A stretch of 64,000 nt of DNA from Patescibacteria group bacterium (lineage in GTDB: Bacteria; Patescibacteriota; Microgenomatia; CAYGWK01): the NCBI GenBank assembly GCA_049322615.1, contig JBMORX010000009.1:57120-121119 (forward strand). Reading direction: 5' to 3'. A program made the translations under genes and the position numbers. Below the pieces are notes generated by a model. That model had not been told where the DNA came from. It did no database searches and saw only the letters and a list, made by a program, of their open reading frames with translations. Of this stretch, positions 44,219 through 44,851 are shown one piece after another (within the stretch, counting starts at the first letter, position 1; the number at the start of each line of letters is the position of its first letter).

Positions 44219-44242
44219 GCCGGGATGGCGGAATTGGTAGAC
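44219..44242 (+). pseudogene. tRNA-Leu-like 5' fragment immediately upstream of the HNH gene
   Basis: GCCGGGATGGCGGAATTGGTAGAC matches type II tRNA 5' ends in this array. Confidence 0.5.
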
Positions 44243-44290
44243 TTAAAGTATATGCTTTACAATTGGTTTGCCAAATAGTAAACTAGGGTT

Positions 44291-44767
44291 ATGAGGCAAA
44301 GAAGGTGGACAGAGGAACAGTTAAGAAAGTTTGCAAAAGAAGTTCGAAGCATAAGGCAATTACTTTCTAAATTGGGTTTAGTTGAAGCAGGTGGAAACTA
44401 TGCCCAAATTAAAAAATATTTGCACTTTTACAAAATCGACATTTCTCATTTTAAAGGTCGCGGATGGAATAGGGGATTACATGGGATTGGAAAACCACTT
44501 CTTCCTTTAGAGAAAATTTTGGTTAAGGATAGCCCATTCCAGAGTTATAAACTTAAAAAGCGTTTATTTGCCGCAGGTCTTAAACCACAAAGTTGTGAAA
44601 TGTGCGGTTGGGCAAAAAGAACAAGTGATGGCCGTTTACCTTTAGAGCTTGACCATATAAATGGCAAAAGTAGAGATAATCGTTTAGAAAATTTACGAAT
44701 TCTTTGCCCTAATTGCCACAGCTTGCAACCAACACACCGAGGAAGAAATAGAAAACAATTGGGCTAG
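44291..44767 (+). CDS. HNH endonuclease; the stop codon lies inside the first 7 nt of tRNA-Leu(TAA)
   Basis: ELDHINGKSRDNRLENLRILCPNCH HNH motif plus a Cys pair CEMC. Confidence 0.8.
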   Translation: MRQRRWTEEQLRKFAKEVRSIRQLLSKLGLVEAGGNYAQIKKYLHFYKIDISHFKGRGWNRGLHGIGKPLLPLEKILVKDSPFQSYKLKKRLFAAGLKPQSCEMCGWAKRTSDGRLPLELDHINGKSRDNRLENLRILCPNCHSLQPTHRGRNRKQLG

Positions 44768-44851
44768 TGGCGGAATCGGTATACGCGCAACACTTAAAAT
44801 GTTGTGGGTGTAAAATCACCCATGAGGGTTCGAGTCCCTCCTGGCCCACCA
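44761..44851 (+). tRNA. tRNA-Leu(TAA) with encoded CCA
   Basis: acceptor GGGCTAG/CTGGCCC, anticodon loop CTTAAAA, long variable arm, T loop TTCGAGT. Confidence 0.8.

What the first reader, a model, noticed from the sequence alone, without database searches (positions are those of the whole stretch)
44219..44851. HNH endonuclease gene wedged between a tRNA-Leu 5' fragment and an intact tRNA-Leu(TAA), with its stop codon inside the tRNA
A 24-nt copy of a type II tRNA 5' end (GCCGGGATGGCGGAATTGGTAGAC) starts immediately after the CCA of the preceding nested locus. A 158-aa HNH nuclease ORF follows. Its TAG stop is nucleotides 5-7 of tRNA-Leu(TAA). The two GIY-YIG genes are placed the same way relative to tRNA genes (20560..20826, overlapping tRNA-Val by 23 nt, and 33606..33878, between tRNA-Arg and tRNA-Lys with a tRNA 5' fragment upstream). 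In this genome, homing-endonuclease-type genes therefore systematically abut tRNA 5' ends, with partial 5' duplications upstream.
Basis: partly seen in the sequence, partly recalled or inferred. Interest (0 to 1): 0.8.

Follow-up and report, generated by a model that had tools for sequence, protein, structure and literature searches.

The report
Mobile HNH nuclease parked before tRNA-Leu
A small selfish DNA-cutting-enzyme gene sits immediately in front of the tRNA-Leu(UAA) gene, always at that spot, in about a third of sampled loci carrying this Patescibacteria-type tRNA-Leu(UAA) and in some phages, and it carries a relic of a tRNA-Leu 5' end, which extends a phage-style "homing endonuclease in a tRNA cluster" arrangement to cellular genomes.

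Summary
Window 44219-44242 is a tRNA-Leu 5' fragment. 44291-44767 is an intact 158-aa HNH nuclease ORF. Its TAG stop is nt 5-7 of tRNA-Leu(TAA), 44761-44851.

The arrangement is a family trait, not a local accident. All 107 homologous HNH genes examined are followed within 8-56 nt by a same-strand tRNA-Leu(UAA). Phage homologs also abut tRNA 5' ends, including tRNA-Leu(UAA) in T4-like phages.

The gene behaves as a mobile insertion:
- 36 of 104 metagenomic tRNA-Leu(UAA) loci carry it.
- Syntenic empty sites exist, with tRNA-Cys, a 2-24 nt spacer, then tRNA-Leu.
- Truncated copies and a footprint exist.
- HNH identity stays near 67% where flanking proteins share about 41%.

The 5' fragment recurs at a fixed offset in 11 of 116 loci. 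Its acceptor type is always GCC..., whatever the local tRNA, so it travels with the element.

Best reading: a freestanding homing-type HNH cassette specialised on the 5' flank of tRNA-Leu(UAA), probably leaderless and co-transcribed with the tRNA. It resembles T4 SegB and T5 F-Tfl. The GIY-YIG genes follow the same rule (tRNA-Val, tRNA-Lys, tRNA-Cys). Cleavage specificity and the role of the fragment are inferred, not shown. This is a new variant of a known kind.

The parts
44219..44242 (+). tRNA-Leu-like 5' fragment (acceptor 5' strand, D-stem 5' strand, D-loop; positions about 1-24). It is the left border of the cassette.
   Evidence: It is 16-18/24 identical to the four resident tRNA-Leu genes, so it is not a copy of any of them.
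44236..44272 (.). Imperfect inverted repeat, GGTAGAC (44236-44242) and GTTTGCC (44266-44272), bracketing the -35-like box.
   Evidence: In alignment A2 of 81 loci, 74% of cells pair against 31-46% when slid, and the covariation score is 0.201 against 0.145 in shuffles (0/500). GT/TG equals AC/CA at 63 each, so there is no RNA-strand bias.
44256..44284 (+). Promoter-like TTTACA-17 nt-TAAACT, ending 6 nt before the ATG (a leaderless arrangement).
   Evidence: A -10-like hexamer ends 3-11 nt before the start in 71 of 81 homologous loci, and an SD-like motif is present in only 4 of 81.
44291..44767 (+). HNH (His-Me finger) endonuclease gene, 158 aa, with an N-terminal three-helix domain and a C-terminal CxxC...HNH...CxxC domain.
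   Evidence: Pfam; phrog_10822 at 1e-40 over the full length; PADLOC 'HEase' at 4e-21; invariant residues; AF2 model with pLDDT 84.
44761..44851 (+). Intact tRNA-Leu(UAA). Its first 7 nt encode the end of the HNH ORF and the stop codon.
20560..20826 (-). GIY-YIG mini-nuclease gene (88 aa) whose 3' end overlaps tRNA-Val(gac) 20508-20582(-).
   Evidence: homologs lie 5' of tRNA-Val in 5 of 5 loci.
20836..20961 (-). Decoy tRNA-Val 5' part (20961-20943) interrupted after G18G19 by a palindromic insertion (arms 20942-20921 and 20857-20836), followed by GAGCG and then the ATG.
33606..33878 (+). Second GIY-YIG mini-nuclease gene (90 aa), 43 nt upstream of tRNA-Lys(ctt) 33922-33996.
   Evidence: A distant homolog in L140 abuts tRNA-Lys(ctt).

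Best explanation
The locus is a freestanding (not intron-borne) homing-type HNH endonuclease cassette specialised on the 5' flank of the tRNA-Leu(UAA) gene.

Shown by computation: the cassette is about 550 nt. From left to right it has a relic of a tRNA-Leu 5' end, an inverted repeat around a promoter-like element, a start codon with no room for a leader, and the HNH ORF. The ORF runs up to or into the first nucleotides of an intact tRNA-Leu(UAA). The cassette is present or absent at the same site in syntenic genomes. It decays and is lost. It is far more similar between distant hosts than their housekeeping genes are, so it spreads horizontally.

Inferred: the nuclease cuts or nicks tRNA-Leu(UAA) loci that lack it, and recombinational repair copies the cassette in. 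The element-borne tRNA-Leu fragment on the left and the tRNA itself on the right are the only sequences conserved between distant hosts. They could therefore serve as portable homology arms, and the fragment plus inverted repeat could be a target-mimic operator. The HNH message is the 5' leader of the pre-tRNA. RNase P cleavage at tRNA +1 would separate them. In this window that would remove the last two codons and the stop codon, giving a non-stop mRNA that keeps nuclease levels low, as proposed for T4 segB.
For: - Fixed position: 107 of 107 HNH genes are followed by tRNA-Leu(taa) 8-56 nt after the conserved HRG motif.
- Phage homologs also abut tRNA 5' ends. S-CRM01 abuts tRNA-Ile, GodonK tRNA-Glu and EcSzw-2 tRNA-Leu(tag). 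T4-like Ozark and Aeromonas phage avDM5 abut tRNA-Leu(taa).
- Insertion polymorphism: 36 of 104 metagenomic tRNA-Leu(UAA) loci are filled. Empty sites have tRNA-Cys, 2-24 nt, then tRNA-Leu; filled sites have 524-668 nt.
- Syntenic empty/filled pairs: L129/L078, L107/L034, L201/L010, L205/L060 and L125/L148.
- Decay: truncated copies in L110, L208 and L104, and a footprint in L187.
- Horizontal signature: median HNH identity is 67% against 41% for flanking proteins over 307 locus pairs. HNH exceeds the best flank in 285 of 307. In close relatives HNH is less similar than the flanks. Spearman correlation is 0.30.
- The fragment is at a fixed offset with a GCC-type acceptor regardless of the host tRNA.
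- Promoter-like element and leaderless arrangement.
- Precedent for RNase P cutting between the last codon and the stop codon of segB (PMC2330249).
- Other endonuclease-type gene families use the same niche: LAGLIDADG and GIY-YIG.
Against: - No cleavage site is known.
- The 5' half of tRNA-Leu does not differ between 38 HNH+ and 48 HNH- alleles, so I cannot explain how filled alleles would be immune.
- Only about 10% of loci keep a recognisable full fragment, so it is not required for persistence.
- The stop codon lies inside the tRNA in only 50 of 106 loci, so removal of the stop codon is not a conserved feature.
- The inverted repeat has only moderate support.
- Very strong protein conservation could also reflect a host-useful function.
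- The empty loci were taken from unbinned metagenome contigs, so their taxonomy is inferred from synteny with named CPR genomes only.
Confidence: 0.66

Rival explanations
1. The HNH protein is a domesticated, vertically inherited host gene tied functionally to tRNA-Leu(UAA), for example in regulation or maintenance of that locus. Its absence elsewhere is due to repeated loss.
For: The family is extremely conserved, with 49 invariant columns. Most copies are intact, and the position next to an essential tRNA is fixed. The flanking order infB-rbfA-DHH-tRNA-Cys recurs.
Against: Identity plateaus near 67% whatever the host divergence, and in close relatives it is lower than the flanks. Clean empty sites exist in syntenic genomes. 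Truncated copies and a footprint exist. Full-length homologs occur in phages at tRNA genes. Unrelated LAGLIDADG ORFs occupy the same spacer.
Confidence: 0.12
2. The upstream fragment is not an insertion-generated duplication. It is the decayed remnant of a whole second tRNA-Leu gene that stood before the HNH in an ancestral phage-like tRNA cluster (tRNA-Leu, HNH, tRNA).
For: Phages GodonK and S-CRM01 have an intact tRNA-Leu ending 3-69 nt before the HNH start. The fragment's acceptor type is element-specific.
Against: Only about 48 nt separate the end of the fragment from the ATG, and the offset is constant. nhmmer found no anticodon-arm, T-arm or 3'-acceptor remnant, apart from short extensions in L030 and L157. 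GIY-YIG cassettes show fresh 5'-only copies that are 23/24 to 33/34 identical to the adjacent tRNA.
Confidence: 0.12
3. The HNH ORF lies in a group I (or other) intron of a split tRNA-Leu. The fragment would be the 5' exon, and the 3' exon would lie inside the downstream tRNA.
For: Patescibacteria are rich in tRNA group I introns, some carrying HNH genes (PMC13011429). Locus L049 has a group-I-like intron in this same tRNA.
Against: The downstream tRNA is complete, with its own 7-bp acceptor stem. The fragment's GCCGGGA cannot pair with the 3' strand CTGGCCC. There is no group I intron match in 43400-45600 even at E<=1. About 90% of loci lack the acceptor part of the fragment.
Confidence: 0.03
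4. The direct repeat is an attachment-site duplication left by an integrase-mediated genomic island or prophage.
For: tRNA genes are classic integration sites, and integration leaves partial tRNA duplications.
Against: The insert is only about 550 nt and holds one ORF, a nuclease and not a recombinase. The duplication is of the 5' end and is non-identical. The unit has no terminal inverted repeats.
Confidence: 0.02

Closest known systems
Phage T4 SegB (GIY-YIG freestanding homing endonuclease in the T4 tRNA gene cluster; PMC2330249)
   Same: It is a freestanding nuclease gene inside a tRNA array and is absent from related genomes. Its ORF ends at the next tRNA, so RNase P processing cuts between the last codon and the stop codon. 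It spreads together with neighbouring tRNA genes.
   Different: It belongs to a different nuclease family (GIY-YIG, not HNH). It is in a phage, not a cellular genome. SegB recognises the T-loop motif of many tRNA genes. No partial tRNA copy is reported at its border.
Phage T5 F-TflI / F-TflII / F-TflIV (HNH endonucleases encoded in the T5 tRNA region; cited in PMC2330249) and the phrog_10822 HNH family
   Same: They are HNH enzymes encoded between phage tRNA genes. The window protein matches phrog_10822 over its full length. It matches Tequintavirus 'homing endonucleases' over residues 77-153 at about 49% identity. One Enterococcus phage homolog is annotated F-TflIV.
   Different: The CPR clade is chromosomal, tied to one tRNA species (Leu-UAA), and carries a tRNA-Leu 5' relic and an inverted repeat. 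Biochemistry is known only for the T5 enzymes.
Group I intron of tRNA-Leu(UAA) and HNH-bearing tRNA introns of Patescibacteria (PMC13011429)
   Same: The host gene or phylum is the same, and a selfish element exploits a highly conserved tRNA.
   Different: Here there is no intron. The element sits outside the mature tRNA sequence, and no ribozyme was detected.
MobE of phage Aeh1 and T4 seg/mob genes (freestanding homing endonucleases that cut a neighbouring conserved gene)
   Same: The gene lies in an intergenic position next to a conserved target. Spread by co-conversion of flanks is the presumed mechanism.
   Different: Their targets are protein-coding genes, with no link to tRNA processing and no target fragment at the border.
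tRNA-targeting integrative elements (att duplications)
   Same: A partial tRNA copy marks one border, and the functional tRNA is kept intact.
   Different: Those duplicate the 3' end, are identical repeats made by a recombinase, and flank kilobases of cargo.

Membership tests
HNH / His-Me finger nucleases | beta-beta-alpha-metal motif with catalytic His and Asn/His, here flanked by two CxxC pairs | tested here: met
   Pfam PF01844 at 4e-7. C102, C105, H122, N134, C139, C142, H143 and H149 are invariant. The AF2 model shows strand-strand-helix at residues 119-144.
Freestanding homing endonuclease genes | Presence/absence polymorphism at one homologous site among related genomes | tested here: met
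   36 of 104 loci are filled. Syntenic empty/filled pairs exist.
Freestanding homing endonuclease genes | Not embedded in an intron or intein | tested here: met
   No group I intron at E<=1. The ORF is separate, and the flanking tRNA is complete.
Freestanding homing endonuclease genes | Horizontal spread with a cycle of invasion, decay and loss | tested here: met
   HNH 67% against flank 41% over 307 pairs. Truncated copies in L110, L208 and L104 and a footprint in L187.
Freestanding homing endonuclease genes | Site-specific cleavage of the allele that lacks the gene, followed by repair-mediated copying | not testable with these tools
   This needs enzyme assays or co-infection-type crosses. 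No allele-specific substitution was found in the tRNA 5' half.
tRNA-cluster homing endonucleases of phages (SegB / F-Tfl type) | Gene located between or next to tRNA genes, same strand, with the ORF end abutting a tRNA 5' end | tested here: met
   phage homologs.
tRNA-cluster homing endonucleases of phages (SegB / F-Tfl type) | Encoded by a phage genome | tested here: not met
   The window and the 80 genome loci are Patescibacteria MAG chromosomes with housekeeping neighbours.
Group I intron-encoded endonuclease | ORF inside a group I ribozyme whose exons join to give the tRNA | tested here: not met
   The acceptor strands of the fragment and the downstream 3' end are not complementary.
Integrase-type tRNA-targeting island | Recombinase gene plus identical att repeats of the tRNA 3' end | tested here: not met
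   Single nuclease ORF; 5' non-identical repeat; no terminal repeats.

The most novel reading that the evidence does not exclude
Patescibacteria (and some large phages) may host a class of 'tRNA-docked' mini homing cassettes, each nuclease subfamily dedicated to one tRNA gene: HNH with tRNA-Leu(UAA), and GIY-YIG clades with tRNA-Val, tRNA-Cys and tRNA-Lys. The shared plan would be promoter, then a decoy 5' tRNA part broken by a palindrome, then the nuclease ORF, then an intact tRNA. The decoy and the tRNA would act as portable homology arms. That would let an intron-less element home into an essential, universally conserved gene across distant hosts while restoring the gene, and the pre-tRNA leader position would make the host's own RNase P throttle nuclease expression.
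Probability: 0.3. Interest if true: 0.75.

Novelty: new variant of a known kind. Interest (0 to 1): 0.6.

Why it matters
Freestanding homing endonucleases in tRNA clusters have so far been a phage curiosity (T4 SegB, T5 F-Tfl). This finding shows one HNH family fixed to a single position, the 5' edge of tRNA-Leu(UAA). It occupies that position in roughly a third of the sampled metagenomic loci carrying this tRNA-Leu(UAA) type, most of them CPR-like, and the same family occupies it in T4-like phages. That gives three things:
1. A concrete, testable case of how a selfish nuclease can colonise an essential, intron-less RNA gene without destroying it.
2. An explanation for the tRNA fragments and odd tRNA-adjacent ORFs that complicate annotation of CPR genomes.
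3. A natural marker of horizontal DNA flow among ultrasmall bacteria and between them and phages.

If the decoy fragment works as a homology arm or an operator, it is a new design principle for homing elements.

Tried and rejected
1. 'GGTATAC in the intact tRNA D-loop is an immunity substitution against a nuclease that recognises GGTAGAC.' Rejected. D-loop variants and every other position of the 5' half have the same frequencies in 38 HNH+ and 48 HNH- alleles.
2. 'The inverted repeat is an RNA hairpin.' Not supported. GT/TG wobble cells (63) equal AC/CA cells (63), so there is no strand bias. A DNA-level repeat is more likely.
3. Terminal inverted repeats around the HNH-tRNA unit. Rejected. 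The mean longest repeat is 6.9 nt against 6.6 nt in shuffles.
4. Group I intron. Rejected. There is no hit at the gathering threshold or at E<=1.
5. The fragment as a copy of a resident tRNA-Leu. Rejected. The best identity is 18/24.
6. L192/L163 as 'close relatives with and without'. Withdrawn. Only the two tRNAs match. The syntenic pairs are used instead.
7. Structure and fold searches gave only weak McrA/Cap5-type HNH matches and no information on the N-terminal domain.
8. The literature searches returned no description of this HNH-tRNA-Leu linkage.

Full report
**What is in the window**

- The CCA of a nested tRNA-like locus ends at 44218.
- GCCGGGATGGCGGAATTGGTAGAC occupies 44219-44242.
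- An ATG at 44291 opens a 158-aa ORF that ends with TAG at 44765-44767.
- ARAGORN and Rfam call a tRNA-Leu(taa) at 44761-44851, so the stop codon is tRNA nt 5-7.

The ORF is a bona fide HNH nuclease. It hits Pfam PF01844 at 4e-7, matches the phage family phrog_10822 over its full length at 1e-40, and matches the PADLOC 'homing endonuclease' model at 4e-21. It keeps all 49 invariant columns of a 26-sequence family alignment, including two CxxC pairs and the catalytic His/Asn residues. An AlphaFold model (pLDDT 84) shows an N-terminal three-helix domain and a C-terminal beta-beta-alpha core. Solved structures gave only weak McrA-type HNH matches.

The 24-mer is unique in the window, with no chance matches expected. 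It aligns to positions 1-25 of a tRNA-Leu(UAA) profile. It is not a copy of any of the four resident tRNA-Leu genes, the best being 18/24.

The window comes from a Patescibacteria (CPR) MAG.

**The arrangement is a property of the protein family**

The protein has thousands of homologs at about 65-85% identity.

In the seven loci of the first three look-ups and in the 80 genome loci, a same-strand tRNA-Leu(taa) follows the gene. I then pooled genome loci, metagenome loci and the window. Of 107 HNH genes with an intact C-terminal motif, 106 are followed by an ARAGORN-called tRNA-Leu(taa) that starts 8-56 nt after the conserved HRG motif. The remaining one (L049) has the same tRNA interrupted by a group-I-like intron in its anticodon loop. 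The stop codon lies inside the tRNA in 50 of 106 loci.

Phage homologs at 35-45% identity behave the same way.
- Synechococcus phage S-CRM01: the ORF overlaps tRNA-Ile by 10 nt.
- Gordonia phage GodonK: the ORF overlaps tRNA-Glu by 10 nt.
- Escherichia phage EcSzw-2: the ORF ends 1 nt before tRNA-Leu(tag).
- T4-like phage Ozark and Aeromonas phage avDM5: a homolog lies directly before tRNA-Leu(taa).
- One Enterococcus phage copy is annotated F-TflIV. Tequintavirus 'homing endonucleases' share the C-terminal 80 residues.

**It is an insertion that comes and goes**

I scanned metagenome contigs for the tRNA-Leu(UAA) anticodon and T-arm pattern, independently of the nuclease. Of 104 loci with at least 520 nt upstream, 36 carry the HNH gene and 68 do not.

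In about half of the loci, tRNA-Cys(gca) lies upstream. Without the HNH the tRNA-Cys to tRNA-Leu spacer is 2-24 nt in the clean cases. With it the spacer is 524-668 nt.

Five empty/filled pairs share collinear flanks at about 64-80% nucleotide identity: L129/L078, L107/L034, L201/L010, L205/L060 and L125/L148. In each, the roughly 550-nt extra segment lies between the leader (or tRNA-Cys) and +1 of tRNA-Leu.

Decaying copies exist.
- L110 and L208 keep only the C-terminal part in spacers of 211-217 nt. L104 is internally shortened.
- L187 keeps the tRNA fragment, the inverted repeat, the promoter and the ATG, but the ORF is deleted.
- The same spacer holds LAGLIDADG endonuclease ORFs in L132 and L142, and a decayed one in L179.

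**It spreads horizontally**

For 307 pairs of genome loci that share at least one flanking protein, median HNH identity is 67% and median flank identity is 41%. HNH exceeds the best-conserved flank in 285 of 307 pairs. In closely related genomes the order reverses (L023/L057: HNH 68%, flanks 80-93%). The two measures correlate only weakly, with a Spearman coefficient of 0.30. A plateau of similarity that is independent of host divergence, together with a patchy distribution and decay, is the expected signature of a homing element rather than a core gene.

**The left border**

An alignment of 81 upstream regions (A2) has the consensus GGTAnAC ... TTnnn ... CGTnTACCATATGnTATAAT, about 6 more nt, then ATG.
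- A -10-like hexamer ends 3-11 nt (mode 6-7) before the start codon in 71 of 81 loci. Only 4 of 81 have a Shine-Dalgarno-like motif. In the window the element is TTTACA-17 nt-TAAACT, ending 6 nt before the ATG. This suggests a leaderless mRNA.
- GGTAGAC(GC) and (GC)GTCTACC form an imperfect inverted repeat around the -35 box. 74% of cells pair against 31-46% when slid, and covariation exceeds all 500 shuffles. There is no G-U over A-C bias (63 against 63), so I read it as a DNA-level repeat.
- The 5' arm of the repeat is the D-loop end of the tRNA-Leu fragment.
- A full fragment (acceptor strand to D-arm) is recognisable in 11 of 116 loci. In ten it starts 70-81 nt before the ATG, and in one it starts at 92 nt because of an extra D-loop hairpin. 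In the ten clear cases its acceptor is always of the GCC type (GCCCGGG, GCCGAGG, GCCGGGA). The local intact tRNAs have GGGCTAG, GGTCCAG, GGCTCGG, GGGTCAG and other acceptors.
- Shorter 5'-truncated versions with the same 3' end occur elsewhere, for example in L143 and L126.
- The fragment therefore belongs to the element and is not a fresh copy of the neighbouring gene.
- The unit has no terminal inverted repeats. No group I intron is detectable.

**How it most likely works**

Shown: position, polymorphism, decay, horizontal signature, an intact catalytic motif, the promoter-like element, and the element-borne tRNA relic.

Inferred: the enzyme cuts or nicks tRNA-Leu(UAA) loci that lack it, and repair from a filled locus copies the cassette. 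Between distant hosts the only shared sequence is the tRNA itself. A cassette with a tRNA-Leu 5' piece on its left and the tRNA on its right carries homology on both sides of a break in the 5' half of the target. It also leaves an intact tRNA behind.

The same fragment and repeat, placed on the promoter, could be a target-mimic operator of the kind known for I-TevI. That comparison rests on my own knowledge, not on a test here.

Because the ORF ends at the tRNA, the message is the pre-tRNA leader. In this window RNase P cleavage at 44760/44761 would remove the last two codons and the stop codon. Exactly this was proposed to limit T4 SegB expression (PMC2330249).

**Weak points**

- No cleavage site is known.
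- I found no systematic difference in the tRNA 5' half between filled and empty alleles.
- Most loci have lost most of the fragment.
- The stop-in-tRNA feature is present in only about half of the loci.

**The GIY-YIG part of the finding**

Both 88-90-aa ORFs are GIY-YIG domains. The minus-strand gene 20560-20826 overlaps tRNA-Val by 23 nt.

Its closest homologs from five independent loci all lie -10 to +43 nt before a tRNA-Val. In the CPR loci already held, 12 of 14 GIY-YIG copies lie within about 70 nt before a same-strand tRNA (Cys, Lys, Gly or Leu). That sample is biased towards tRNA-rich DNA.

Upstream 5' tRNA copies are striking here.
- They are 21/24 identical to the downstream tRNA-Val in L215, L217 and L218.
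- They are 23/24 in L012 and L158, and the L012 copy extends to 33/34.
- In the window the copy is 18/24.

All tRNA-Val cassettes share a conserved palindromic insertion of about 48 nt right after G18G19 of the decoy. No Rfam family matches it.

In L222 the 3' part of an older tRNA-Val follows the intact tRNA-Val. Its acceptor strand pairs with the upstream decoy, so the cassette is nested in a former tRNA gene.

The second GIY-YIG (33606-33878) lies 43 nt before tRNA-Lys(ctt). Its 'upstream fragment' (33470-33501) precedes tRNA-Arg, and its relation to the nuclease gene is unclear.

**Comparison with what is known, and novelty**

The closest systems are T4 SegB and the T5 F-Tfl enzymes. Like them, this is a freestanding endonuclease in a tRNA cluster with an ORF/tRNA overlap, and it spreads together with tRNA genes.

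The differences are:
- a cellular, phylum-wide distribution;
- strict linkage of one HNH clade to one tRNA species, shared with T4-like phages;
- a tRNA 5' relic with a palindrome at the border.

The recent survey of tRNA group I introns in Patescibacteria describes intron-borne HNH genes in tRNA-Asn but not this arrangement. Two other literature searches found nothing.

I rate it a new variant of a known kind, of moderate to good interest.

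Noticed in passing
window 44061-44218 and 44994-45207: There are two nested tRNA-Gly loci. In the first, tRNA-Gly(gcc) 44096-44170 sits in the loop of a 10-bp helix (CCCCGCACCA/TGGTGCGGGG) that replaces the anticodon loop of an outer tRNA-Gly-like gene. In the second, removing 45030-45169 leaves an outer tRNA-Gly(tcc) cloverleaf. The removed segment holds a complete tRNA-Gly(tcc), 45080-45153, flanked by a 15-nt inverted repeat. The plan is the same as in the nuclease cassettes (an old tRNA split by an insert that brings a replacement tRNA), but without an ORF.
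   Followed up: partly
window 20472-20961 (minus strand); L215, L217, L218, L220, L222: GIY-YIG/tRNA-Val cassettes share a conserved palindromic element of about 48 nt (TTTACCCGnnCAAAnTTT...AAAnTTnGnnCGGGTrAA) inserted after G18G19 of a decoy tRNA-Val 5' part. In the window a third arm after tRNA-Val makes inverted repeats of about 35 nt that bracket GIY-YIG plus tRNA-Val. In L222 the decoy's matching 3' tRNA half lies downstream of the intact tRNA. No Rfam family matches. The 88-aa GIY-YIG has no DNA-binding domain, so it may recognise the hairpin structure.
   Followed up: partly
L012 2010-2400, L158 (rc) 1330-1760, L210 1-390: GIY-YIG genes before tRNA-Cys carry near-identical copies of tRNA-Cys positions 1-23 or 1-34. 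The copies are interrupted by small perfect palindromes in the anticodon loop or at the D-stem. In L012 and L210 the ORF's ATG coincides with the tRNA variable-loop TATG.
   Followed up: partly
L049 about 2975-3130: The tRNA-Leu(UAA) that follows the HNH gene in this Magasanikbacteria locus is interrupted in the anticodon loop by a sequence with the conserved core of the classic tRNA-Leu(UAA) group I intron (..CCCGAGCCAAGTCC..). Two different selfish elements therefore exploit the same gene.
   Followed up: no
L132, L142, L179 (tRNA-Cys/tRNA-Leu spacer): LAGLIDADG endonuclease ORFs (Pfam PF14528/PF00961) occupy the same spacer that the HNH uses in other genomes. L179 holds a decayed copy.
   Followed up: partly
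L213 868-1569 (phage vB_EcoM_Ozark), L214 901-1323 (Aeromonas phage avDM5): T4-like phages have an HNH homolog directly before tRNA-Leu(taa) at the head of the tRNA cluster (Leu-Gly-Pro-Ser-Thr...). The window's own order, Leu(taa)-Pro(tgg)-Gly(tcc), resembles that cluster.
   Followed up: partly
window 33470-33501: A tRNA-like 5' piece (GCGTCCATAGCTCAATTGGATAGAGCCGAA: acceptor strand plus a complete D-arm) runs straight into tRNA-Arg(tcg) at 33502. Its parent tRNA was not identified.
   Followed up: no
window 43907-43931 and 44929-44954: Similar short GC-rich palindromic motifs (cccttcgctacgctcaggg and cccttcggcttcgcctcaggg) follow tRNA-Phe and tRNA-Pro. Related 'tcgctacgcga' palindromes appear in the spacers of L105 and L124. 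They may be terminators or a small repeat family.
   Followed up: no
L187, about 115 nt upstream of tRNA-Leu: A footprint of a lost HNH cassette. The full tRNA-Leu fragment, inverted repeat, -10 box and ATG are kept, but only about 15 codons remain before the tRNA.
   Followed up: yes
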